Shown piece by piece: positions 3,312 through 21,393 of a DNA stretch of 64,000 bases. This DNA comes from a virus. The notes under the pieces were generated by a model, which was given only the letters and a program-made list of their open reading frames with translations, was not told the origin of the DNA and did not search any database. The first letter of the stretch is position 1; every line of letters starts with the position of its first letter. Both the position numbers and the translations under genes were made by a program. The DNA is taken from the IMG/VR virus record IMGVR_UViG_3300024255_001088; one strand, given 5' to 3'.

Positions 3312-4901
3312 ATGTCAGACGATATTTTTATAAAACATGATAAGAATGGTGGAACTTTTCAGCAACCCTTTTTAGCCAGAGTACCTGCAACCGGTCAACA
3401 ACCGAATATCGCACAAAGAATTTATCAGGTTACTACTCAAGGAACACAACCATTTACATATCAAAGTAGAACACCTACAAATGTTCAGACGCCTAGTAAT
3501 GCACAAAATCCAATAATTGCTCAAGGTATCGCACAAACAACTTATCAACATAGGTCGCCTGCTATATACACAAGTAGGGCGCCTTCAATATACAATATTC
3601 AAACACCTTCTACATATCAACATAGAAGTCCTTTGATATATCAACATAGGTCACCGTTTACTTATCAGTTAAATTATCAACATAGAGAACCTTCTACATA
3701 TCAACATAGAAGTCCTTTGATATATCGTACACCGACTCAGACTAGAACGCCTAGCATCTATACAAATAGACAACCTTTAACATATGAACATAGAAGTCCT
3801 TTTACATATGACCACAGAAGTCCTTTAACATATGACCACAGAAGTCCTTCTCGAACACCTTCTACATATCAAAATAGACAACCTTTAATATATGACCATA
3901 GGTCGCCTTATCAAAGTCCGTTTACTTATCAACATAGAAGTCCGTTGATATATGACCATAGGTCGCCTTCTACATACGATAATAGAGAACCTAGTATCTA
4001 TCAACATAGAAGTCCAGACACTTATCAGCATCAATCGCCGAGTACTTATCAGCATAGGTCACCGTCTCAGAGTCCGTTTACATACGACCATAGGTCACCA
4101 TTTACATATGACCATAGGTCACCGTCTCAGAGTCCGTTTACATACGACCATAGGTCACCATTTACATATGACCATAGGTCGCCTTATCAAAGTCCGTTTA
4201 CATACGACCATAGGTCACCATTTACATATGACCATAGGTCACCATTTACAACTCCAGTAATTGTTAATACACAAAGCTCAAGAAATGCACGAACACCGTT
4301 TATCTTTAGTGAATTACAACAGCAAAACATTGGTACTACGACTGCTCCATATGCTGAAGTTCATTGTGAGATGTCACTTATAGATTCTAGCGGTCGAGAA
4401 CCTTGGATTGTATTATATTGTGTTGAATCAAGTAATGATGTTAATGTATATGTTTATGCTTCAGCTGATGCATTTGGACTTCCTGATGCATATCTGAAAG
4501 AAACAAATACCGGCGGTACTCAAAATGGTCAGGATCAAAACATTGAAGAAAATAGTGATGTTCTTCTATACAAAATAGACGATGCTGGAACTAATTATTC
4601 TGTTGCTAGAAGTACCTCTACTCATGGTACCTTCAATGAGGGTACTCTGAGCGGAAACATTTCTGGAGGCACTGCAATAACTAGCACTTCTTGGACTTAT
4701 GGTACAACTAATGGTACTTTTACCAAGTGGAAATGTGATAATGCTAACTCTGGAGATGTTAAGGAGTACGAGACAACTAATACATTTACATTTACAAGTC
4801 CAGATGCTAATATGGGAACTCATACAATAACGCTAAAAGTGAATCTGTATTACGAAAACGAACAACCAGAAGAAGATGAAGAAGAAAATGACCAGGAGTA
4901 A
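3312..4901 (+). CDS. Zipper chain A1: xTYxHRSP repeat protein with a ~200-aa C-terminal domain
   Basis: Residues 20-329 are Pro-delimited repeats; residues 330-529 are non-repetitive with an acidic tail. Confidence 0.85.
   Translation: MSDDIFIKHDKNGGTFQQPFLARVPATGQQPNIAQRIYQVTTQGTQPFTYQSRTPTNVQTPSNAQNPIIAQGIAQTTYQHRSPAIYTSRAPSIYNIQTPSTYQHRSPLIYQHRSPFTYQLNYQHREPSTYQHRSPLIYRTPTQTRTPSIYTNRQPLTYEHRSPFTYDHRSPLTYDHRSPSRTPSTYQNRQPLIYDHRSPYQSPFTYQHRSPLIYDHRSPSTYDNREPSIYQHRSPDTYQHQSPSTYQHRSPSQSPFTYDHRSPFTYDHRSPSQSPFTYDHRSPFTYDHRSPYQSPFTYDHRSPFTYDHRSPFTTPVIVNTQSSRNARTPFIFSELQQQNIGTTTAPYAEVHCEMSLIDSSGREPWIVLYCVESSNDVNVYVYASADAFGLPDAYLKETNTGGTQNGQDQNIEENSDVLLYKIDDAGTNYSVARSTSTHGTFNEGTLSGNISGGTAITSTSWTYGTTNGTFTKWKCDNANSGDVKEYETTNTFTFTSPDANMGTHTITLKVNLYYENEQPEEDEEENDQE
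3369..4298 (+). repeat. Coding repeat array (HRSP type), 310 codons
   Basis: Units of even length (4-16 aa); near-perfect 60-bp tandem copies at ~4050-4250. Confidence 0.95.
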
Positions 4902-4907
4902 TGTGAT

Positions 4908-6002
4908 ATGCCAGTAGGACAACAACCATCCATATACCAACATCCTATTGCTACACAGGCGCAACAACCAGCGCAACAACCTAATATTAGAAACAAACAA
5001 CACCCTGTTATTAGAAACAAACAGGAAAGTAATCAAGAACCTAATATTAGAAACAAACAACACCCTGTTATTAGAAACAAACAGGAAAGTAATCAAAATC
5101 CTGTTATTAGAAACAAACAAGAACCTAATATTAGAAGCAAACAGGAAAGTAATCAAAATCCTGTTATTAGAAACAAACAACATCCGTTTATTAGAGACAG
5201 ACAAAATCCGGTTGAAAGAGCTCATCAAACTCCTTATACTGCAAATAAACAAAATCCTGTTATTAGAGACCAACAGGTGCCTAGTATAAGAAACGCCCAA
5301 CAGAATGCTCAAGAACCTAATATTAGAAGCGCTCAAAGTCCTTACATCGCAGATGCACAAGCGAATACGCAGAATCCTTTTATTAGAAATCAACAAGAAC
5401 CTAATATTAGAAGCAAACAGGAATCTGTTATAAGAAACAAACAGTCTGCTTATCAAGCGAGTAAACAAACTCCTTCTATAACAAGAACACCAGCGAGTCA
5501 ACAAGAACCTAATATTAGAAGCGCACAAACACCTTCTATTAGACAAGCGCTTAAAAATAAACAACAACCTAATATTAGAAGTCAACAAGAACCTAATATT
5601 AGAAATAAGAGAACACCTTCAGCACATAACGCACAATATCTTAATACTCACAATAGACAAGACCCTGTTATTAGAAGACAACCATTTACATATCCTTTCT
5701 CATATAGAAGTCCTTCTACTTACAGACATCCTACTATTGGTCAACAACCATATATTGCACAAGGTCAGGCTTCTTATAGTTTTCAACAAAACAGACAACA
5801 ACCATATGGATTCAGGTCTCCGTTTATATTTCAAGCAACAGAGAACTCTAATCGACCAATAACGCCAGTTGCAAAAGTGAAAGGAGTCTTTATAAAAGAT
5901 AGTGATGGTGTTGTAAAAGCTTCAACTAAAGTCTTTGTTAAGAAAGATAGTTCAACAGTTGAGAAAATTCATCAGGTACCTGCTTTGCCGTTTGACGAAT
6001 AG
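4908..6002 (+). CDS. Zipper chain B1: xIRxxQxP repeat protein
   Basis: Residues 8-317 are repeats mirroring A1; C-terminal 'VFIKDSDG...VFVKKD' hairpin motifs. Confidence 0.85.
   Translation: MPVGQQPSIYQHPIATQAQQPAQQPNIRNKQHPVIRNKQESNQEPNIRNKQHPVIRNKQESNQNPVIRNKQEPNIRSKQESNQNPVIRNKQHPFIRDRQNPVERAHQTPYTANKQNPVIRDQQVPSIRNAQQNAQEPNIRSAQSPYIADAQANTQNPFIRNQQEPNIRSKQESVIRNKQSAYQASKQTPSITRTPASQQEPNIRSAQTPSIRQALKNKQQPNIRSQQEPNIRNKRTPSAHNAQYLNTHNRQDPVIRRQPFTYPFSYRSPSTYRHPTIGQQPYIAQGQASYSFQQNRQQPYGFRSPFIFQATENSNRPITPVAKVKGVFIKDSDGVVKASTKVFVKKDSSTVEKIHQVPALPFDE
4929..5858 (+). repeat. Coding repeat array (EPNIR type), 310 codons
   Basis: Near-perfect 60-bp tandem copies at ~4975-5180. Confidence 0.95.
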
Positions 6003-13386: not shown

Positions 13387-15489
13387 ATGGCGACAGGCTC
13401 ACAAAAGGTAAAAACACCAACAGGTTGGAATAGTACCCGAGGTGCATGGGTAAAAACAGACTCAGGCACATGGAAAGCTGCTGACCAGATTTATGTAAAA
13501 ACACCTACAGGTTGGAACAATGCTTCTGGACAACAGAGTGTTCAACAACCTTACCCTTATATCGCAAACGCACAAGAACCCAATATAAGAAACAAACAGA
13601 ATCCTTATCCTTATATTGCAAACGCACAAGAACCTAATATAAGAAACAAACAGAATCCTTATCCTTATATTGCTAATGCACAAGAACCTAATATTAGAGA
13701 TAGAAGACAACCTGCGATTTATCAAAATCCAGTAAATGCACAAGAACCTAATATTAGAAATCAACAAGAACCTAATATTAGGTCACAACAAGAACCTAAT
13801 ATTAGAGATGCTAGACAACCTGGTACATATCAACATAGGTCACCTAGTACATATAGAGACCCTCGTTCATATCAGAATCCTTCTACATATAATCATAGAA
13901 GTCCGTTGACATATCAACATAGAAGTCCGTTGACATATCAACATAGGTCACCATTTATATATCAACATAGGTCACCTTCTACATATAGTAATAGACAACC
14001 TAGTACATATCAACATAGGTCGCCTTATAGAAGTCCGTTTATCTATCAACATAGAAGTCCGTTGACATATGACCACAGGTCTCCTTTAATATATCGTAAT
14101 CCGTTTACTTATAATCACAGGTCTCCTTTAACATATGACCATAGGTCACCTTATCAAAGTCCATTTACTTACGACCATAGAAGTCCGTTGACATATCAAC
14201 ATAGGTCACCTTATAGAAGTCCGTTCACTTATCAACATAGAAGTCCGTTGACTTATCAACATCAGTCACCGAGTATTTACCAGAATCCAAGTACCTATCA
14301 GAACAGACAACCTAGTACTTATCAGCATCAGTCGCCAAGTATTTACCAGAATCCTAGTACTTACGACAATAGACAACCTAGTAGTTATCAGCATCAGTCG
14401 CCAAGTATTTACCAGAATCCGAGTACTTACAACAATAGACAACCTGGTACATATGACCATAGGTCACCTTATAGAAGTCCGTTCACTTATCAACATAGGT
14501 CACCATTTACATATGACCATAGGTCGCCGTTTACATATCGTAATCCGTTTACTTATAACCATAGGTCGCCTACTACATATAATCACAGGTCACCATATAC
14601 ATATGACCATAGGTCGCCTAGTACATACAATCACAGGTCACCTAGTACATATCAGGCAAGACAACCTAACGCTGCTAGAAACCCATTTAGTGCAAGACAA
14701 CCGTTCACTTATCAGGCAAGAGAACCTAATACATATAATCATAGGTCGCCTAGTACATACCAAGCAAGACAACCGAATAGTGCTAGACAACCATTTAGTG
14801 CGAGACAACCGTTCACTTATCAGGCAAGACAACCAAACTCTGCTAGAAACCCATTTAGTGGAAGAAATCCTTTCACTTATCAGGCAAGGTCGCCTTCGAT
14901 TGCAAACAATAGGTCTCCTGCAACTTATTCATTCAGAATGCCGTTTACCTTTGGTGGTGGAGGAGGAGGCGGAGGTTGCTTCGCTCCAGGTTCAATGATA
15001 TGGTTAGGCGATGGTTCACATGCACCTATCGAGTCATGTGTTGTTGGTCAATGGGTCATGTCTTGGAACGAAAGTACTAAATTACTTGAACCTAAGAGAA
15101 TACAACAAATTAATCCTCAGCCAATCAGTTCTATATGGGATATAACATTCTCAGATGGTAGAATTCTACAGATGACTGATACTCACCCATTGATGTTACC
15201 AAATGGTGAATGGGGTGCATTTGATATTGAGAAATCAGTAAAAGAACATTGGTGGATGGAAGATATAGAAACACATGAACTTAAAGTTGGAGATAGTATA
15301 TTCAGTATGTTAGATGGCATAATGTTTGATAGACAAGATGAAATGGGACTAGAGATAGTATCAATAGAAGAACACTCAGAAATGGAAGTTTATAACTTAA
15401 CTGGTATTGAAGATAACTCGAACTTCTTTGTTAATGGCATGTTAGCACATAACTTTAACAATCTACCTATTCCTGTAGGACAAAAATAA
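13387..15489 (+). CDS. Zipper chain A2: repeat protein with Gly8 linker and C-terminal Hint domain
   Basis: Three 'VKT..(.)G.W'-type motifs, 464-aa repeat array, G8, then a Hint domain. Confidence 0.85.
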   Translation: MATGSQKVKTPTGWNSTRGAWVKTDSGTWKAADQIYVKTPTGWNNASGQQSVQQPYPYIANAQEPNIRNKQNPYPYIANAQEPNIRNKQNPYPYIANAQEPNIRDRRQPAIYQNPVNAQEPNIRNQQEPNIRSQQEPNIRDARQPGTYQHRSPSTYRDPRSYQNPSTYNHRSPLTYQHRSPLTYQHRSPFIYQHRSPSTYSNRQPSTYQHRSPYRSPFIYQHRSPLTYDHRSPLIYRNPFTYNHRSPLTYDHRSPYQSPFTYDHRSPLTYQHRSPYRSPFTYQHRSPLTYQHQSPSIYQNPSTYQNRQPSTYQHQSPSIYQNPSTYDNRQPSSYQHQSPSIYQNPSTYNNRQPGTYDHRSPYRSPFTYQHRSPFTYDHRSPFTYRNPFTYNHRSPTTYNHRSPYTYDHRSPSTYNHRSPSTYQARQPNAARNPFSARQPFTYQAREPNTYNHRSPSTYQARQPNSARQPFSARQPFTYQARQPNSARNPFSGRNPFTYQARSPSIANNRSPATYSFRMPFTFGGGGGGGGCFAPGSMIWLGDGSHAPIESCVVGQWVMSWNESTKLLEPKRIQQINPQPISSIWDITFSDGRILQMTDTHPLMLPNGEWGAFDIEKSVKEHWWMEDIETHELKVGDSIFSMLDGIMFDRQDEMGLEIVSIEEHSEMEVYNLTGIEDNSNFFVNGMLAHNFNNLPIPVGQK
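13552..14943 (+). repeat. Coding repeat array (short EPNIR part, then long HRSP part), 464 codons
   Basis: 63 units of 4/6/8/10 aa. Confidence 0.95.
14977..15453 (+). other. Hint (intein-like/BIL) autoprocessing domain
   Basis: Block A CFAPGS, block B TDTHP, block F VYNL, block G NFFVNGMLAHN; +1 residue is Phe; no endonuclease. Confidence 0.9.
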
Positions 15490-15529
15490 TGAAGATGATA
15501 ATTAAATTAAGAGTAGGGAGTAAAATCTA

Positions 15530-16996
15530 ATGCCACAGCAACCTCTAATTGGACTTGCTCAATCGCCAAGTACTTCTAATGTGCAAACTCCGTATATTGC
15601 TAATGGCCAGCAACCTTATACTGGTCAACAACCATATACATATCAGTCGCCATATATTGCATCTGGTCAGACTCCTTATACTGGTCAGACTCCTTATACT
15701 TACCAGAGTCCTTATATTGCGAATAATCAACAACCCAATATTAGAAGTTATCAAAGTCCGTATATTGCGAATGGTCAGACTCCTTATACTGGTCAACAAC
15801 CTTATACTTTCCAGAGTCCATACATTGCGAATAATCAAGAACCTAATATAAGGAACAATCAGGAACCCAATATTAGAAGCATACAAGAACCTAATATTAG
15901 AAACCAACAAGAACCTAATATTAGAGATGCTCAGTCACCTAGTAATGCTCAGCAACCTACAATTAAGAACAAACAAGAACCTAATATTCGTTCAGCGCAA
16001 CAGTCAGCACAAGAACCAAATATCAGAAACTTTCAGACTCCTTACATTGCTAATGCACAAGGGGCTAGTGCAGCTCAAGAACCTAATATCAGAAATGCAC
16101 AAACACCTTATATTGCAAACAGACAAAACACTGCAAATGCACAAGAACCTAATATTAGAAACAGACAAACACCTTATATTGCAAACAGACAAACCACTTC
16201 AAATGCACAAGAACCAAACATAAGGTCACAACAAGAACCTAATATTCGTTCAGCGCAAGCGTCAGCACAAGAACCAAACATAAGGTCACAACAAGAACCT
16301 AATATTAGAAACAAACAGCAGAGTGCTCAACAACCTACTATTAAGAACCAACAGGAACCTAATATTAGAGATGCTCAGTCACCTAGTAATGCTCAGCAAC
16401 CTAATATTAGAAGTCAACAAGAACCTAATATTCGTTCAGGTCAAACGGTAACGCAAGAACCTAATATTAGAGACAGACAAACACCTTATATTGCTAATGC
16501 ACAAAATCCGTTTATTAGAAATGCTCAAGAACCAAACATAAGGTCACAACAAGAACCTAATATTAGAGCTCAACAAGAACCTAATATTAGAAACAGACAA
16601 ACAACAGCGAGCTATCAGAATCCTGTAAATGCTCAGAATCCGTTTATAAGAAATAATCAGACTCCATTTACATATGACCATAGAAGTCCGTTGACATATG
16701 ACCACAGGTCTCCTTTAACATATGACCATAGAAGTCCGTTTACTTACAGAAATCCTGCAAATAGTCAGACACCTCTTACATATCAACATCAGAGTCCTTC
16801 TACATATGCTAGACAAGGTCAAACACCAACGACTTATCAACATAGAAGTCCTTCTACATATGCTAGACAAGGTCAGACACCAACGACTTATCAACATAGG
16901 TCACCTAGTACATATGCTAGACAAGGTCAAACACCTGTTATCCGTTGGGATGGTTCATTGTCACAAACATGGCCAGGAACACCTGTTAATTCTTAA
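15530..16996 (+). CDS. Zipper chain B2: repeat protein (long EPNIR/YIAN part, then short HRSP part)
   Basis: 5 aa + 464-aa array + 19 aa; SD GGGAG. Confidence 0.85.
   Translation: MPQQPLIGLAQSPSTSNVQTPYIANGQQPYTGQQPYTYQSPYIASGQTPYTGQTPYTYQSPYIANNQQPNIRSYQSPYIANGQTPYTGQQPYTFQSPYIANNQEPNIRNNQEPNIRSIQEPNIRNQQEPNIRDAQSPSNAQQPTIKNKQEPNIRSAQQSAQEPNIRNFQTPYIANAQGASAAQEPNIRNAQTPYIANRQNTANAQEPNIRNRQTPYIANRQTTSNAQEPNIRSQQEPNIRSAQASAQEPNIRSQQEPNIRNKQQSAQQPTIKNQQEPNIRDAQSPSNAQQPNIRSQQEPNIRSGQTVTQEPNIRDRQTPYIANAQNPFIRNAQEPNIRSQQEPNIRAQQEPNIRNRQTTASYQNPVNAQNPFIRNNQTPFTYDHRSPLTYDHRSPLTYDHRSPFTYRNPANSQTPLTYQHQSPSTYARQGQTPTTYQHRSPSTYARQGQTPTTYQHRSPSTYARQGQTPVIRWDGSLSQTWPGTPVNS
15545..16936 (+). repeat. Coding repeat array mirroring 13552-14943, 464 codons
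   Basis: 63 units whose lengths are the reverse of those in A2. Confidence 0.95.
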
Positions 16997-17033: not shown

Positions 17034-18581
17034 ATGAGCGTAAAATCAGACTCACTCGAGCACACAAAGGAACTTCTCAAAGATTGGGATCCAACAGATA
17101 AGAACACACATGTTCAGTTGGGTTCTTTTGATGTATCAAAAGATTATAAAGAAACAGAAGCATATAAATCTTTAAAATGGGTGACAGCGAACAAAACAGG
17201 AAAATTAAAACAGGTCAAATGGGGTGATATGACTAAGTTAATCAAGGAACAAAAGTTTCTTGGTTGGAACAAACTACAATCTCATTCATGGGCATATCAT
17301 TACTTTCTTTCTAAAGGATACACTGCACCACCCGAAAATCCAAAACCAGGAATTGCAGGTATGGATTTTAAAAATTCAAATGATGAATATCAAAAGATAG
17401 AAGAATTCACAGATACTAAGTTAAGCGAACAACAAGATTCTAGTCTTAATGCTGTATATTATCATGGTGCAAAGGCACATTGGTTAGTCGATAGTATCAG
17501 AAAAGAAGGTCTATGGAATGCAATTCAAGGCACTGTATCTACAGCAGGTATGAACTCCAGAGATGAACGAATGTATCAGTTATCTATACATCCAGGTTCT
17601 GTTCGTTCAGGTGTTTTCGAAACTATGAATGACCCAGACTTAGATTTATGGATATGGGATAACCACGATGCTATACCTCTTCCAGAAACACCTATAGATG
17701 AAATGATTGACGAAATGAAGTCGCAACTTGTAGAAAGAAATGCAGACCACTACTCAATGTCGTTTTCATTCACTCGTGGATATTTAGAAATACATAGTGA
17801 CTTATTGAAGATGAACTTCAGAGGAGATGTGACAGACTTCAATAAAAAAGTAAATAAACTTTCTGCTGGCAAACCCTTGACAATCTATGTCGGATATGAT
17901 AGTAGACACAAAGACATTGCAGAACTAAGTGCTAAATGTCTTAAGAGTAGTATATTATTTGGAGCAGGTCATGGTGATGTACATGATATATTAGGAGATT
18001 GGACTCCTGAGATAAAGTTTCTTGACATATCAAAGATTCCAGAGTATAATAGAGAGTATGCAGCTCAATCAACAGAGTTCACATATAGTAGATTCTTAAT
18101 TCCTTACTTAGAAAACTATGAAGGATTTAGTATTTTTATTGATGATGATATACTATTCAATGAAAGTATCTTACCAATGTTCTACTATTTAGATTTAGAT
18201 GATGCAGTTGCATGTGTTCAGTATGATTTTGATACTTATGCTGAAACAAAATTTAACGGTGAAAAGAATGTATCTTATCCTAAAAAACTTTGGTCATCAT
18301 TAATGATATTTAATAATGGTCACGAAGACTGTAAGAAACTTACGCCAGAAGTTATCAATACTGAAAGTGGTAAATATCTACATCAATTTGAATGGACAGA
18401 TAAGATATCAGAAATACCAGAATGGTATGTTATAACTGAGGGGCATGATACGCAAGAAGAAAAGTGGCGTGCTTGTGCTATACATTATACTAGAGGTGGT
18501 CCTTGGATTGAAGGCATGGATACTTCTGAAATAGAACACCTAAATATGTATGAAAGATTTAAAAATAAACATCAAAACTAG
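17034..18581 (+). CDS. Two-domain protein with C-terminal GT-A glycosyltransferase
   Basis: 'IYVGYDSR', 'STEFTYSRFLIPYL', DxD ('IDDD'), 'YPKKLWSSLMIFN', 'HYTRGGPW'. N-terminal domain not identified. Confidence 0.75.
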   Translation: MSVKSDSLEHTKELLKDWDPTDKNTHVQLGSFDVSKDYKETEAYKSLKWVTANKTGKLKQVKWGDMTKLIKEQKFLGWNKLQSHSWAYHYFLSKGYTAPPENPKPGIAGMDFKNSNDEYQKIEEFTDTKLSEQQDSSLNAVYYHGAKAHWLVDSIRKEGLWNAIQGTVSTAGMNSRDERMYQLSIHPGSVRSGVFETMNDPDLDLWIWDNHDAIPLPETPIDEMIDEMKSQLVERNADHYSMSFSFTRGYLEIHSDLLKMNFRGDVTDFNKKVNKLSAGKPLTIYVGYDSRHKDIAELSAKCLKSSILFGAGHGDVHDILGDWTPEIKFLDISKIPEYNREYAAQSTEFTYSRFLIPYLENYEGFSIFIDDDILFNESILPMFYYLDLDDAVACVQYDFDTYAETKFNGEKNVSYPKKLWSSLMIFNNGHEDCKKLTPEVINTESGKYLHQFEWTDKISEIPEWYVITEGHDTQEEKWRACAIHYTRGGPWIEGMDTSEIEHLNMYERFKNKHQN

Positions 18582-18595
18582 ATTATGGAGTTATT

Positions 18596-19147
18596 ATGAA
18601 TATGTTAATTTATTGTGAGAATGGTCATCTTACTATTAGAAAACCAAATGGCCTAGAATGGAGACATGATAATGTCGATAAACCTAATTTAGGGTTTGAG
18701 TATGATGTTCTTATCTATGATGACATCGAAGTCAAGATTATGGAATGGAAAGAAAATGTTCAGTTTGATGAACAAGAAAAAATTTCATTAACAGATGTTG
18801 AGTTAGATGCAATCGAAAACTACATTCAAAATTCTGTTCCACCTTCCGATGTGACATTATCCAATCAATACAGTCAACAAATTAATGATGTTGGTAAAGA
18901 TTACTTAGACCAACAAATTCAAACTTATGGATTTGAAAGTCTGGTAGATGTTATGGCTGCAGGTAGAGATGGTTCAAATCATCCTTTAAGGTCAGATGCA
19001 AGAAGAGTATTAGAATACTATGATGTGATGTGGAACATCTATGTAAATATTATGAATGATGTAAAATCAACTAGAGAAGATTTACTTCCAGATGTAGAAG
19101 AATATATTAATAGATTCCCACCGCCACAAAAAGCATTAATAGAGTAG
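18596..19147 (+). CDS. Hypothetical protein, possibly tail-fibre-assembly-like
   Basis: C-terminal helical pattern resembling fibre chaperones; lies after the fibre genes. Confidence 0.4.
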   Translation: MNMLIYCENGHLTIRKPNGLEWRHDNVDKPNLGFEYDVLIYDDIEVKIMEWKENVQFDEQEKISLTDVELDAIENYIQNSVPPSDVTLSNQYSQQINDVGKDYLDQQIQTYGFESLVDVMAAGRDGSNHPLRSDARRVLEYYDVMWNIYVNIMNDVKSTREDLLPDVEEYINRFPPPQKALIE

Positions 19148-19150
19148 TTT

Positions 19151-19885
19151 ATGTCCCTAGAAATAGTCAAGGTAGATAAACCTTTTACTATTAAAGACTT
19201 TCCTTTAGGAAATAAAGTCTATGTAATAGACAATTACTTAGAAACTTCTATACATCGATGGATTCATCGTAAAACTTCTGAGGGTCCTAGGTGGTCTAAA
19301 CAAAATCAAGTAAACGCACAACATCCCACAGGTTTACCTCATCATCAACTTTGGGGTGCATCATTCTTTAAAACAGATGATTATGGTAATCCAAAAATGG
19401 AATATGGGGAAACAAGCGACACTGTAGAACATGCTAAATGGTTGAACAGAAGAATATGTACAGACTTTGGTTTTAAATGGAAAAGATTTCAGTATATGGG
19501 AACCAATTCTCAAACTCATGGTCAACATGGTACAACTCATTGTGATTGTGATGAACAAGATGAATGGAACCTATCATTTCTATATTACTATAATAAATTC
19601 TGGAATCCTGCATGGGGTGGAGATTTAAGATTTTATGATAAAGGTGTTTATCAAGCCGGTTTAGATGGAAGAGAAGAACACATAGAAAAACATTCTATAG
19701 GAAGTATAGAGTTTAAACCAAACAGATTGTTAATGTTTGATGGAAGAATACCACATGGTGCAGATGCACCAACAGAACGAGCTCGATATGCAGATAGATG
19801 TTCTATCGTACTTAGGGGTGACGAGATAGAACTAGTAGATAAGGAAGAATTATATAATGCCAACGATAGATTTCACTACATTTAA
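19151..19885 (+). CDS. 2OG-Fe(II) oxygenase (prolyl-hydroxylase-like)
   Basis: HxD (HCD), 'W.P.WGG.L.F', 'PNRLLMFDG.IPH', distal Arg. Confidence 0.85.
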   Translation: MSLEIVKVDKPFTIKDFPLGNKVYVIDNYLETSIHRWIHRKTSEGPRWSKQNQVNAQHPTGLPHHQLWGASFFKTDDYGNPKMEYGETSDTVEHAKWLNRRICTDFGFKWKRFQYMGTNSQTHGQHGTTHCDCDEQDEWNLSFLYYYNKFWNPAWGGDLRFYDKGVYQAGLDGREEHIEKHSIGSIEFKPNRLLMFDGRIPHGADAPTERARYADRCSIVLRGDEIELVDKEELYNANDRFHYI

Positions 19886-20693
19886 CGAAGAGAGTCTTAG
19901 AGACTGGAAACCAGTTCTTGCTAAATCGTTAAGTCCTGATTGGTGGAAAAAAATGAAAGTCTTTCAACACGATAGAGGACAAAGAATACAGACTATTCGT
20001 GCTTGTCCGGCAATGGACGATTGGTTAAAATCTGGTTGGTACATTCTTGCAAATAGAGATATGGAAGTTGTTTTTGATAACGGCAAAACATATACTCAAG
20101 AATTTGGTAAAAAGGTGGCACAATCTCAAGCATCTCCTTCTCATCCTGCAGCTCAGTTTGCACACTCATTCAGTTATTTAGGAGAAGAAGGTCCAATTAA
20201 AGATGCATTTAAAATGAGAAATGCTTGGAATATAATAACGCCAAAGGGTTATTCTTGTTTCTATTTAGACCCCTTTTTATTTCAAAACAATCATTTTGCA
20301 ACATGGCAAGGTGTTATAGATACAGATGACTTTAATATCAATCAAGACAATTCACAAATTATTTTCTATCCTAAAGTTAGTCATTCGTTTGTTATACCAA
20401 AAGGAACTCCCCTAGTTCAAGTTATACCTTTTAAAAGAGAAGAATGGGTATCGACTTATCAGTTAAAAGACACTGCTGGATGGCACAAAGATAGAACCGA
20501 AGATAGAGTACAAGAACTTCCTAGCATGGACCAAGTAAACAGAGAGAAGTACGATAAACTATTAAAAGAGAAACCCAACAATATGGGTGCATATAGAAGT
20601 GAAGGACATTGGAAACAAAAAGGTAAGAATTTCAAAGAAATGGAACCTCCACCAGAGTGTCCATTTCATAAAGGAGAAATAGATGGCGATTAA
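19857..20693 (+). CDS. Conserved phage hypothetical protein
   Basis: 'TIRACPAM.D', 'W.I.TPKGYS', 'GVIDTD', 'GTPLVQVIPFKR' motifs, commonly found beside oxygenases in T4-like phages. Confidence 0.6.
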   Translation: MPTIDFTTFNEESLRDWKPVLAKSLSPDWWKKMKVFQHDRGQRIQTIRACPAMDDWLKSGWYILANRDMEVVFDNGKTYTQEFGKKVAQSQASPSHPAAQFAHSFSYLGEEGPIKDAFKMRNAWNIITPKGYSCFYLDPFLFQNNHFATWQGVIDTDDFNINQDNSQIIFYPKVSHSFVIPKGTPLVQVIPFKREEWVSTYQLKDTAGWHKDRTEDRVQELPSMDQVNREKYDKLLKEKPNNMGAYRSEGHWKQKGKNFKEMEPPPECPFHKGEIDGD

Positions 20694-21393
20694 ATTATTT
20701 AGTCCAGCAGTAATTTGTATTAGAGAATGGTTATATAATCCAGAAGACAAAGTAGAAGGATTGACGCCAGAGTATTTTCAAATGTTGAAGGATGAAATGG
20801 ATGCTATGAGAACTAGAGACCGTGAAGGTAGAAGCAGGTCTAATAAAGGTCTTGGTTGGCAATCAAACGATGGTATCGATAACAATCCCATATTCAATAA
20901 GTTGATGAGACAAATTAAAAGAACAGTGTCGGAAGAGATTATGGGTTATTGTGGATTCGAAAAAGGAACTGCTCAATGTGTTATGCATAACTCATGGGGA
21001 AACATAAACTATCCAGGTGGATATAATGCACCACATTTACATAATGGTTGTACTTATTCTGGTGCATGTTATATTAGGGCAGACGGAGACGAGGGAGATA
21101 TTAAGTTTATAGAAACAACTAAACACTATGTTGGAATGGCTCTATCTTCACCTAGAATGGAAGAATCTTGGGGTTGGCAACCAAAAACTGGAGACATACT
21201 TTTATTTCCTAGTGGCACCATGCATCTGGTTGAACCAAACACGACAGATAAAGATAGATATAGTATATCGTTTAATATAGAGATTTCTCAACCCAATGGA
21301 GAAATTCTTATTGAAGAGAATGGCGAAGAATGGCATAAAGAAAACATGGGTTTAGTATTCAGAACAGATAGATTTGGTAAGTTGATACAGTAG
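20683..21393 (+). CDS. Putative 2OG-Fe(II) oxygenase (TIGR02466-like)
   Basis: 'W.NIN..G.YN.PHLH...SG..Y', 'LFPS...H.V', 'R.SISFN'. Confidence 0.8.
   Translation: MAIKLFSPAVICIREWLYNPEDKVEGLTPEYFQMLKDEMDAMRTRDREGRSRSNKGLGWQSNDGIDNNPIFNKLMRQIKRTVSEEIMGYCGFEKGTAQCVMHNSWGNINYPGGYNAPHLHNGCTYSGACYIRADGDEGDIKFIETTKHYVGMALSSPRMEESWGWQPKTGDILLFPSGTMHLVEPNTTDKDRYSISFNIEISQPNGEILIEENGEEWHKENMGLVFRTDRFGKLIQ

What the first reader, a model, noticed from the sequence alone, without database searches (positions are those of the whole stretch)
14944..15545. Hint domain behind a Gly8 linker at the predicted zipper tip
Seen: FTF-G8-C...TDTH...AHN-FNNLPIPVGQK. All catalytic motifs are present but the +1 residue is Phe. 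Established: Hint domains lacking a +1 Cys/Ser/Thr do not splice canonically but can cleave, or transfer the N-terminal part to a nucleophile. In the mirror model the Gly-Cys junction lies next to the B2 N-terminus (MPQQP). The A2 tail 'PVGQK' resembles the B1 start 'MPVGQQP'. Inference: the domain may be a self-removing assembly aid, may join A2 to B2 to close a hairpin, or may attach the tip to another molecule.
Basis: partly seen in the sequence, partly recalled or inferred. Interest (0 to 1): 0.72.

Follow-up and report, generated by a model that had tools for sequence, protein, structure and literature searches.

The report
Self-processing Hint cap on phage fibre
A repeat-rich fibre-like protein of an uncultured marine T4-like phage ends in eight glycines, a complete intein-like (Hint) self-cutting domain and a short tail with one conserved lysine; the domain most likely cuts itself off the fibre tip after translation, a layout I found in no paper.

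Summary
ORF 13387-15489 (700 aa) ends in Gly523-530, Cys531, block-B TDTH (597-600), His688-Asn689 and an 11-residue tail starting with Phe.

The 159-aa stretch is a real Hint domain. The AF2 model has pLDDT 87.7, and Foldseek matches the NpuDnaB mini-intein and the Tetrahymena BIL2 domain at E about 4e-10.

It fits type-A bacterial intein-like (BIL) domains by definition: terminal His-Asn, no +1 nucleophile, and a variable host protein. It is not an intein.

About 40 metagenomic orthologue clusters keep Gly(-1), Cys1, the block-B His and the terminal HN. This holds even where Hint identity drops to 22-30%. 'PVGQK' itself is not conserved.

The geometric claim holds. A2 and B2 prolines coincide in an antiparallel register (56 of 59), and the mirror axis falls at the poly-Gly start in six lineages.

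Most likely the domain is a self-contained, self-removing cap. A Gly530-Cys531 thioester would be resolved by water or by the tail lysine, as in BIL2. Ligation to B2 is not excluded, but nothing specifically supports it.

This scan has already reported similar Hint caps on phage fibres in other genomes.

The parts
13387..15489 (+). Gene A2 (700 aa): conserved N-terminal region, Pro-punctuated repeat array, Gly8, Hint domain, Lys-ended tail
   Evidence: ORF list and translation. Orthologues in about 40 clusters from metagenomes and 14 IMG/VR loci.
13387..13551 (+). Conserved N-terminal region (aa 1-55, MATGSQKVKTP...), probably the base or attachment end
   Evidence: It stays 75-100% identical across the family while the Hint falls to 22-30%.
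13549..14952 (+). Repeat array (aa 55-522; EPNIR, HRSPxTYx and ARQP units) that mirrors the B2 array
   Evidence: Motif scan. Antiparallel Pro register 56 of 59 at i+j=524.
14953..14976 (+). Gly8 linker (aa 523-530). Gly530 is the -1 residue of the predicted scissile bond
   Evidence: Orthologues have 1-11 Gly directly before Cys1, always with Gly at -1. The count is 9 versus 11 in the near-identical loci L017 and L016.
14977..15453 (+). Hint domain, 159 aa, Cys531 to Asn689 (type-A BIL-like)
   Evidence: Pfam, AF2 model, Foldseek against PDB, profile searches against PDB.
14977..14979 (+). Cys531, the predicted nucleophile for the N-S acyl shift
   Evidence: Invariant in the 11 aligned orthologues and present in every Hint-bearing family member.
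15175..15186 (+). Block B TDTH (Thr597, His600)
   Evidence: His is invariant and Thr is at least 90% conserved. A [TS]xxH motif is found in all 29 further Hint-bearing members parsed.
15418..15420 (+). Ser678 at block-F position 13, where most orthologues have His
   Evidence: The window clade reads DNSN, ENNN or DNNN; other clades read DNH[TN].
15448..15453 (+). His688-Asn689, the terminal His-Asn (site of Asn cyclisation in inteins and type-A BILs)
   Evidence: Invariant.
15454..15486 (+). Tail FNNLPIPVGQK: +1 is Phe, and Lys700 is the last residue
   Evidence: Of 24 distinct tails (4-13 aa), 23 have Lys in the last two residues, and there are 25 Lys in all. The tail has low confidence in the model (residues 174-178 below pLDDT 50).
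15530..16996 (+). Gene B2 (488 aa), the mirror-register partner. Its residue 1 faces the start of Gly8
   Evidence: The gene is syntenic in all loci.

Best explanation
The last 178 residues of A2 form a self-contained autoprocessing cassette of the type-A BIL kind: a Gly run, a Hint domain, and a short tail ending in Lys. After the precursor folds, Cys531 would attack the Gly530 carbonyl, assisted by Thr597 and His600, to give a Gly-thioester. The cassette then leaves the fibre. The thioester would be resolved in cis, either by water or by the epsilon-amine of tail Lys700. Asn689 cyclisation would free the Hint domain, as in the isopeptide-forming splicing of Tetrahymena BIL2. The mature A2 would then end at the poly-Gly at the distal tip, bare or carrying the 11-residue tail on a lysine branch, next to the N-terminus of B2. 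What is shown: the fold, the motifs, their conservation, the conserved lysine and the tip geometry. What is inferred: that cleavage happens, which nucleophile resolves the thioester, and what the removal is for. The purpose could be a temporary cap or folding aid that keeps the tip of the A2/B2 pair in register.
For: 1. The Hint fold is real, and its nearest structures are mini-inteins and BIL domains: 4o1r E 3.8e-10; BIL2 6y75/6tmm E 4.4e-10, TM 0.72; 2lwy.
2. The catalytic set is under strong selection. Gly(-1), Cys1-Phe2, the block-B His and the terminal His-Asn are kept in every Hint-bearing orthologue, although Hint identity to the window falls to 22-30% while the N-terminal region stays 75-100% identical.
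3. The +1 residue is F, G, M or L in 23 of 24 distinct tails, so canonical splicing is excluded.
4. The tails are 4-13 aa and otherwise variable, yet 23 of 24 carry one Lys in the last two residues.
5. In 178 related domains from 117 other proteins, +1 is Lys in 101 and Arg in 23. Forty of them lie within 15 aa of the C-terminus, often as HN-K-stop. The module is therefore portable and does not depend on B2.
6. There are experimental precedents. Type-A BILs mainly cleave at both ends (PMC4031507, PMC7664689). BIL2 joins a Gly-ended N-extein to a lysine side chain without ATP (PMC8616854, section 2.4).
7. Gly at -1 is also the Hedgehog (G|CF) and ubiquitin-BIL (LRLRGG|CF; P0069, P0071, P0087) arrangement.
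Against: There is no experimental evidence of cleavage for this family. Block-F assisting residues are non-canonical here (Asn670, Ser678), so C-terminal cleavage may be slow or absent in this copy. No orthologue was found that naturally ends at the poly-Gly, a form that would show a Hint-less mature protein is functional. In five full-length clusters and one shorter one, the same position carries a retained globular domain, so the tip can host a permanent domain. The role proposed for the lysine rests on analogy with BIL2 only. Two tails (P0172, P0224) lack the C-terminal Lys.
Confidence: 0.55

Rival explanations
1. Hairpin closure. The Gly530 thioester is attacked by the alpha-amine of B2's N-terminus (Pro2 after Met removal). 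This would join A2 and B2 into one chain, with the poly-Gly as the loop.
For: The mirror axis of the A2/B2 proline register falls within 2 residues of the first Gly in six lineages with arrays of 248-523 residues. This places B2 residue 1 at the junction. All six distinct B partners of Hint-type A proteins start with Met-Pro. B2 has no Lys in its first 145 residues, and A2 has none between 89 and 564, so the alpha-amine would be the only partner amine near the tip. Type-A BILs can ligate through a free alpha-amine (PMC4031507).
Against: The Hint-plus-Lys cassette is found on many proteins without such partners. The A1/B1 pair in this window has the same mirror geometry (31 of 39 at c=336) and an 'MP' start, but a non-Hint tip, so neither feature is specific to ligation. 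No fused A-Gly-B single-chain form was seen among 46 full-length relatives. A secondary amine (Pro) is a hindered acceptor. The conserved tail Lys would compete with it.
Confidence: 0.12
2. Transfer to a third molecule. The thioester acylates a lysine of another virion protein, or an amine or hydroxyl on the host surface or on a small molecule. This would fix the fibre tip covalently, in the manner of Hedgehog or BIL2.
For: BIL2 conjugates its N-extein to several substrates (PMC8616854). Hedgehog transfers to cholesterol (PMC7664689). The domain sits at the distal tip, in the host-recognition region of pelagimyophage-like genomes (PMC7029224). In relatives the same position carries a globular, possibly binding, domain.
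Against: No acceptor is identified. There is no sterol-recognition-like region: the tail is 11 aa. A thioester would not survive long in a free virion. The conserved in-cis lysine suggests an internal acceptor.
Confidence: 0.13
3. A retained, non-cleaving tip domain. The Hint fold would be kept as a structural or binding knob, and the motifs would be relics.
For: Other family members carry permanent globular tips. Block-F assisting residues are degenerate in this clade. Pfam scores are below the gathering thresholds.
Against: Cys1, Gly(-1), the block-B His and the terminal HN are invariant across Hint versions that share only 22-30% identity. Relics would not be kept this way.
Confidence: 0.1
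4. A decaying selfish mini-intein that landed near the 3' end of the gene and has no role for the phage.
For: The phage-only profile is as close to DnaB mini-inteins as to BILs. The closest matches in deposited phages are inteins in Vibrio phage helicases.
Against: It is not inserted in a conserved host motif. The 'C-extein' is 4-13 variable residues and there is no homing endonuclease. It is present in about 40 orthologue clusters with a conserved Gly run and tail Lys.
Confidence: 0.04

Closest known systems
Type-A bacterial intein-like (BIL) domains (Amitai 2003; Dassa 2004; Clostridium thermocellum BIL, PDB 2lwy), as summarised in PMC4031507 and PMC7664689
   Same: Hint fold; Cys1; block-B T..H; C-terminal His-Asn; no +1 nucleophile; located in a variable, non-essential protein. 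Foldseek matches 2lwy at E 2.9e-7. The broad family profile matches 2lwy at E 4.7e-22.
   Different: The host is a phage structural-region protein, and the domain lies at the extreme C-terminus. It has a poly-Gly -1 flank and a 4-13 aa tail ending in Lys. The phage-only profile is equally close to DnaB mini-inteins. Activity is untested.
BIL2 of the Tetrahymena thermophila BUBL1 polyubiquitin-like locus (PDB 6y75, 6tmm; PMC8616854 section 2.4, citing Chiarini 2021)
   Same: It is the second-best structural match after the NpuDnaB intein (E 4.4e-10, TM 0.72). The N-extein ends in Gly-Gly before Cys-Phe. A downstream lysine is the acceptor in a splicing-like reaction that makes an isopeptide bond. 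Ubiquitin-Hint fusions are among the sequence relatives.
   Different: There the flanks are ubiquitin-like domains and the acceptor Lys lies in a folded C-extein. Here the N-extein is a 520-aa repeat fibre and the Lys is the last residue of an apparently unstructured 11-aa tail. Sequence identity is about 22%.
Hedgehog C-terminal autoprocessing (Hog) domain
   Same: A C-terminal Hint domain that cleaves at a Gly|Cys-Phe junction through a thioester and passes the N-terminal part to a nucleophile. Foldseek matches 6tyy and 1at0.
   Different: There is no sterol-recognition region. A terminal His-Asn is present, which Hedgehog lacks. The match is much weaker (E 1e-6, TM 0.52-0.59).
C-terminal intramolecular chaperone domains of phage fibres and tailspikes (endosialidase / T5 pb1 type, peptidase S74). 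From my own knowledge, not tested here.
   Same: By analogy only: a C-terminal domain on a phage fibre that is thought to help assembly and then cut itself off.
   Different: The fold and chemistry are unrelated (a Ser-Lys dyad in a trimer). No Pfam match to that family was found here.

Membership tests
Hint (Hedgehog/intein) superfamily | Hint fold | tested here: met
   AF2 model pLDDT 87.7. Foldseek PDB: 61 hits at E<=1e-3, and the listed ones are Hint-fold proteins; the top hits are 4o1r and 6y75.
Hint (Hedgehog/intein) superfamily | N-terminal nucleophile plus block-B Thr/His | tested here: met
   Cys531, Thr597 and His600. They are invariant or nearly invariant in orthologues.
Type-A BIL domain | C-terminal His-Asn | tested here: met
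   His688-Asn689, invariant.
Type-A BIL domain | No Cys/Ser/Thr at +1 | tested here: met
   Phe690. Across 24 distinct tails, +1 is F 11, G 8, M 3, L 1, S 1.
Type-A BIL domain | Sits in a variable, non-conserved protein rather than in a conserved site of an essential protein | tested here: met
   Array length varies, with Cys1 at residues 253-531. The Hint is replaced by other domains in some orthologues.
Type-A BIL domain | Sequence closer to BIL motifs than to inteins | tested here: inconclusive
   Broad profile A1: BIL2 4.7e-24 and 2lwy 4.7e-22, against inteins at 1e-14. Phage-only profile A2: 4o1r 5.1e-7, BIL2 6.3e-7, 2lwy 8.3e-6.
Type-A BIL domain | Autocleavage at the N- and/or C-terminal junction | not testable with these tools
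   This needs expression of the wild type and of C531A and N689A mutants.
Canonical (class 1) intein | +1 Cys/Ser/Thr and a functional C-extein rejoined to the N-extein | tested here: not met
   +1 is Phe. The 'C-extein' is 11 variable residues.
Hedgehog Hog domain | Sterol-recognition region after the Hint module, and no terminal Asn | tested here: not met
   Only 11 residues follow, and a terminal HN is present.
Pre-toxin HINT (PF07591) of polymorphic toxins | Hint domain followed by a C-terminal toxin domain that it releases | tested here: not met
   No domain follows. PF07591 is not among the Pfam hits of the window protein. It is seen only on distant relatives.
BIL2-type isopeptide-forming splicing | Gly-ended N-extein and an acceptor lysine downstream of the Hint | tested here: met
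   Gly530 and Lys700. 23 of 24 tails have Lys in the last two residues. These are sequence features only.
BIL2-type isopeptide-forming splicing | Formation of a Gly-(epsilon)Lys isopeptide bond | not testable with these tools
   This needs MS of the processed product and a K700 mutant.

The most novel reading that the evidence does not exclude
The Hint domain could be a natural protein ligase for virion assembly. It would convert A2's poly-Gly end into a thioester exactly where B2's N-terminus lies. This would join the two gene products into one covalently closed antiparallel hairpin fibre, or fix the tip to another protein. It would be a two-gene, post-translationally stitched structural protein.
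Probability: 0.12. Interest if true: 0.85.

Novelty: new variant of a known kind. Interest (0 to 1): 0.58.

Why it matters
BIL-type Hint domains are known from bacterial surface and toxin proteins and from ciliate ubiquitin-like loci. I found no paper describing them as C-terminal caps of phage fibre proteins. No deposited cultured phage carries this one.

Here the cap sits at a precisely defined place, the fold-back point of a matched two-gene antiparallel repeat pair, and it carries a conserved lysine tail. This gives a clean, small system for two questions: what BIL domains with a Lys flank actually do (cleave, lariat-splice or ligate), and how an abundant group of marine myophages builds its appendages. 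If ligation occurs, it would also be a natural, ATP-free protein-joining module with an unhindered Gly junction.

Tried and rejected
- Complex prediction of A2 447-700 with B2 1-78 gave no verdict (score 0.00, controls not run). It is not used as evidence either way.
- Megablast of the locus against deposited phages found nothing.
- tblastn of the repeat region found only one low-complexity match, in a Vibrio phage.
- tblastn of the Hint found only helicase inteins of Vibrio phages at 25-28% identity.
- PHROGs has no family for A2 or B2.
- NCBIfam gives only weak intein-end matches.
- The window's own assembly is not held. The nearest virus record, G001, has a single Hint locus, and the other matches there were repeat noise.
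- I searched for orthologues that end at the poly-Gly, or for fused A-B chains. None were found; the short hits are contig-end fragments or frameshifted reads.
- PubMed id 15150275 (Dassa 2004) is not held, so its content is cited through PMC4031507.
- The idea that 'PVGQK' echoes B1's 'MPVGQQP' was rejected because it is not conserved.
- A lysine of B2 as acceptor near the tip was rejected, because the first Lys of B2 is at residue 146.
Full report
WHAT IS THERE

The window is the structural region of an uncultured marine T4-like myophage. All large ORFs lie on the + strand. Terminase and tail sheath are recognisable. The tail sheath is 52% identical to Pelagibacter phage Mosig and 49% to HTVC008M.

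ORF 13387-15489 (A2, 700 aa) has five parts:
- a conserved N-terminal region (aa 1-55);
- about 470 residues of short proline-punctuated repeats (EPNIR, HRSPxTYx and ARQP units);
- Gly523-Gly530;
- a 159-residue domain from Cys531 to Asn689;
- the tail FNNLPIPVGQK.

IS IT A HINT DOMAIN?

Yes.
- Pfam gives Intein_splicing at E 2.5e-7 and Hint at 2.8e-4, both under the gathering scores.
- An exhaustive HMMER search of 1.84 billion representatives found 2026 proteins at E<=1e-3 and 281 at E<=1e-10.
- AlphaFold2 with a 30-sequence alignment gave pLDDT 87.7 and pTM 0.84. Only the Gly run and the tail were disordered.
- Foldseek against the PDB ranked the NpuDnaB mini-intein first (E 3.8e-10). The BIL2 domain of the Tetrahymena BUBL1 locus came next (E 4.4e-10, TM 0.72). 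Further down were the Ssp DnaB intein, the C. thermocellum BIL domain (2lwy) and Hedgehog.

By sequence, a profile of phage orthologues alone is equidistant from DnaB mini-inteins and BIL domains (5.1e-7, 6.3e-7, 8.3e-6). A broader profile of the family and its remote relatives is much closer to BILs (1e-22 to 1e-24) than to inteins (1e-14).

By definition (PMC4031507) it fits type-A BILs, not inteins. It has a terminal His-Asn and no +1 nucleophile, it sits in a variable protein, and it has no real C-extein.

CONSERVATION

The first word-index search found 13 close orthologues. IMG/VR gave 14 loci. A search with the N-terminal 62 residues gave 46 full-length clusters.

The N-terminal region stays 75-100% identical across the family. 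The Hint's identity to the window copy falls to 22-30% in many members. In five full-length clusters (plus one shorter one) the Hint is replaced by an unrelated globular domain.

Every Hint-bearing member nevertheless keeps the following:
- a Gly-rich lead-in (1-11 Gly directly before Cys1), with Gly at -1;
- Cys-Phe at positions 1-2;
- the block-B His;
- the terminal His-Asn.

Relics are not conserved in this way.

Two details modify 'all catalytic motifs present'. Block-F position 4 is Asn, not Asp, in the close orthologues. Block-F position 13 is Ser678 in the window clade, where other clades have His. PMC4031507 names both as assisting positions for the later steps. N-terminal chemistry therefore looks better preserved than C-terminal cleavage in this copy. 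That last point is inference.

THE TAIL

The tails are 4-13 residues long and otherwise unalike. In 23 of 24 distinct tails there is one lysine within the last two residues, and there are 25 Lys in all 24 tails. P0172 and the shorter P0224 are exceptions.

Only the Lys is kept.

The same theme runs through the wider family. I examined 178 complete Cys1...His-Asn domains in 117 non-orthologous proteins:
- +1 is Lys in 101, Arg in 23, and Ser/Thr/Cys in only 15;
- -1 is most often Gly (48);
- 40 lie within 15 residues of the C-terminus, often as HN-K-stop;
- 49 proteins have tandem arrays;
- some are ubiquitin-Hint fusions of the BUBL type (LRLRGG|CF).

There is a direct experimental precedent for a lysine acceptor. 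BIL2 joins its Gly-ended N-extein to a lysine side chain, without ATP, in a splicing-like reaction (PMC8616854, section 2.4, citing Chiarini et al. 2021).

THE 'TIP' CLAIM

I tested the mirror model because the finding depends on it. Mapping A2 residue i onto B2 residue 524-i makes 56 of B2's 59 prolines coincide with A2 prolines. The best parallel shift gives 32. With B2's repeat units shuffled, the maximum over 200 shuffles is 31.

The same holds in relatives with different array lengths. The table lists the mirror constant c (i+j at the best antiparallel register) against the position of the first Gly of the run.

| Locus | Mirror constant c | First Gly |
|---|---|---|
| L001 | 248 | 248 |
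| L018 | 478 | 478 |
| L016 / L017 | 508 | 509 |
| L012 | 525 | 523 |
| L026 (distant, different repeats, Hint about 28% identical) | 272 | 270 |

L002 is unclear (c = 340 against first Gly 308).

The position of Cys1 in A2 and the length of B2 also rise together across loci: 531/488, 520/472, 483/442, 315/322, 253/246.

This geometry is not special to Hint-type pairs. A1/B1 in this window shows it too (31 of 39 at c=336), and A1 carries a non-Hint globular C-terminal domain.

MECHANISM

I rank the readings as follows.

(a) A self-contained, self-removing cap (0.55). A thioester at Gly530-Cys531 would be resolved by water or by Lys700, with Asn689 cyclisation releasing the domain. The main arguments are:
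- the cassette is portable and occurs on many proteins without partners;
- it carries its own conserved amine;
- BILs are known mainly to cleave (PMC7664689, PMC4031507).

(b) Transfer to a third molecule (0.13).

(c) Ligation to B2's N-terminal amine, closing a hairpin with poly-Gly as the loop (0.12). The geometry favours it. All six distinct B partners of Hint-type A proteins start Met-Pro. B2 has no lysine in its first 145 residues, so only the alpha-amine is available. Against it:
- B1 of the non-Hint pair also starts MP;
- a non-Hint relative's partner starts MA;
- no fused A-B chain exists among the 46 relatives;
- a Pro amine is hindered.

(d) A retained, non-cleaving knob (0.10).

(e) A decaying intein (0.04).

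None of these can be separated without an expression experiment.

CONTEXT

Synteny is conserved in all loci where the flanks are held: fibre gene, A2, B2, a ~505-515-aa protein with a weak GT8 match, a 183-aa protein, two 2OG-Fe(II) oxygenases, then gp13/gp14/gp15. This lies within the variable 'host recognition cluster' described for pelagimyophages between VrlC and gp14 (PMC7029224).

NOVELTY

Hint and BIL chemistry is well known. I found no paper describing Hint caps on phage fibre-like proteins, and no deposited cultured phage with this protein.

Within this scan the same kind of cap, including the conserved lysine, has been reported several times on other phage genomes. Two first-reader notes concern orthologues of this very protein in another genome. 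I reached the BIL2/lysine reading before reading those notes.

What this locus adds is the defined position of the cap at the mirror axis of a two-gene pair. I therefore file it as a new variant of a known kind.

Noticed in passing
window 13549-14952 and 15530-16996; also L001, L012, L016-L018, L026: The A2 and B2 repeat arrays share an antiparallel proline register: 56 of 59 prolines coincide, the shuffled-unit maximum is 31, and the best parallel register gives 32. The lengths of the two genes rise together across relatives (A2 Cys1 position / B2 length: 531/488, 520/472, 483/442, 315/322, 253/246).
   Followed up: partly
window 3312-4901 (A1) and 4908-6002 (B1): A second mirror pair (31 of 39 at c=336). 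A1 ends in a globular domain of about 190 aa with no family match instead of a Hint. B1 starts MPVGQQP.
   Followed up: partly
P0166, P0167, P0168, P0182, P0183, P0209; L025:1490-2704: Orthologues with the same N-terminal region as A2 carry a beta-rich globular C-terminal domain in place of Gly-run plus Hint. In L025 an extra 94-aa gene lies between A and its partner, which starts MAIGNARQP. Tip modules therefore appear to be exchangeable.
   Followed up: partly
P0016, P0021, P0022, P0031, P0043: Proteins with up to seven complete tandem Hint domains (as many as ten matched stretches in P0042), joined by 1-6 residue linkers such as HN-K-GG-CF. If all were active, they would cut themselves into Hint units and tiny peptides. 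Their purpose is unknown.
   Followed up: no
P0014 (L005:225-2495), P0041, P0044, P0062, P0076, P0088 and others: A family of about 750-790 aa proteins. Each has a ~460-aa N-terminal domain followed by two tandem Hint domains and a final HN-K. In P0014 the two Hints are joined by FKYGGGGG.
   Followed up: no
window 17034-21393; L001-L004, L026: A ~505-515-aa protein with a weak GT8 match (E 2.4e-5), a 183-aa protein and two 2OG-Fe(II) oxygenase-like genes always follow B2. They may modify the Pro/Ser/Thr/Tyr-rich arrays.
   Followed up: partly
L016:5971-6003 versus L017 (same position): The poly-Gly tract is 11 residues in one locus and 9 in the other, though the two are otherwise near-identical. 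In the window it is encoded by mixed GGT/GGA/GGC codons, including (GGA)3. The linker length seems free to drift (3-11 across the close orthologues).
   Followed up: partly
P0198 (202 aa): A protein with the A2-type N-terminal region, a short array, and the C-terminal motif of B1 (…VFIKD…VFVKKDSS…PALPFDE). This may be a natural chimera of the two pair types.
   Followed up: no
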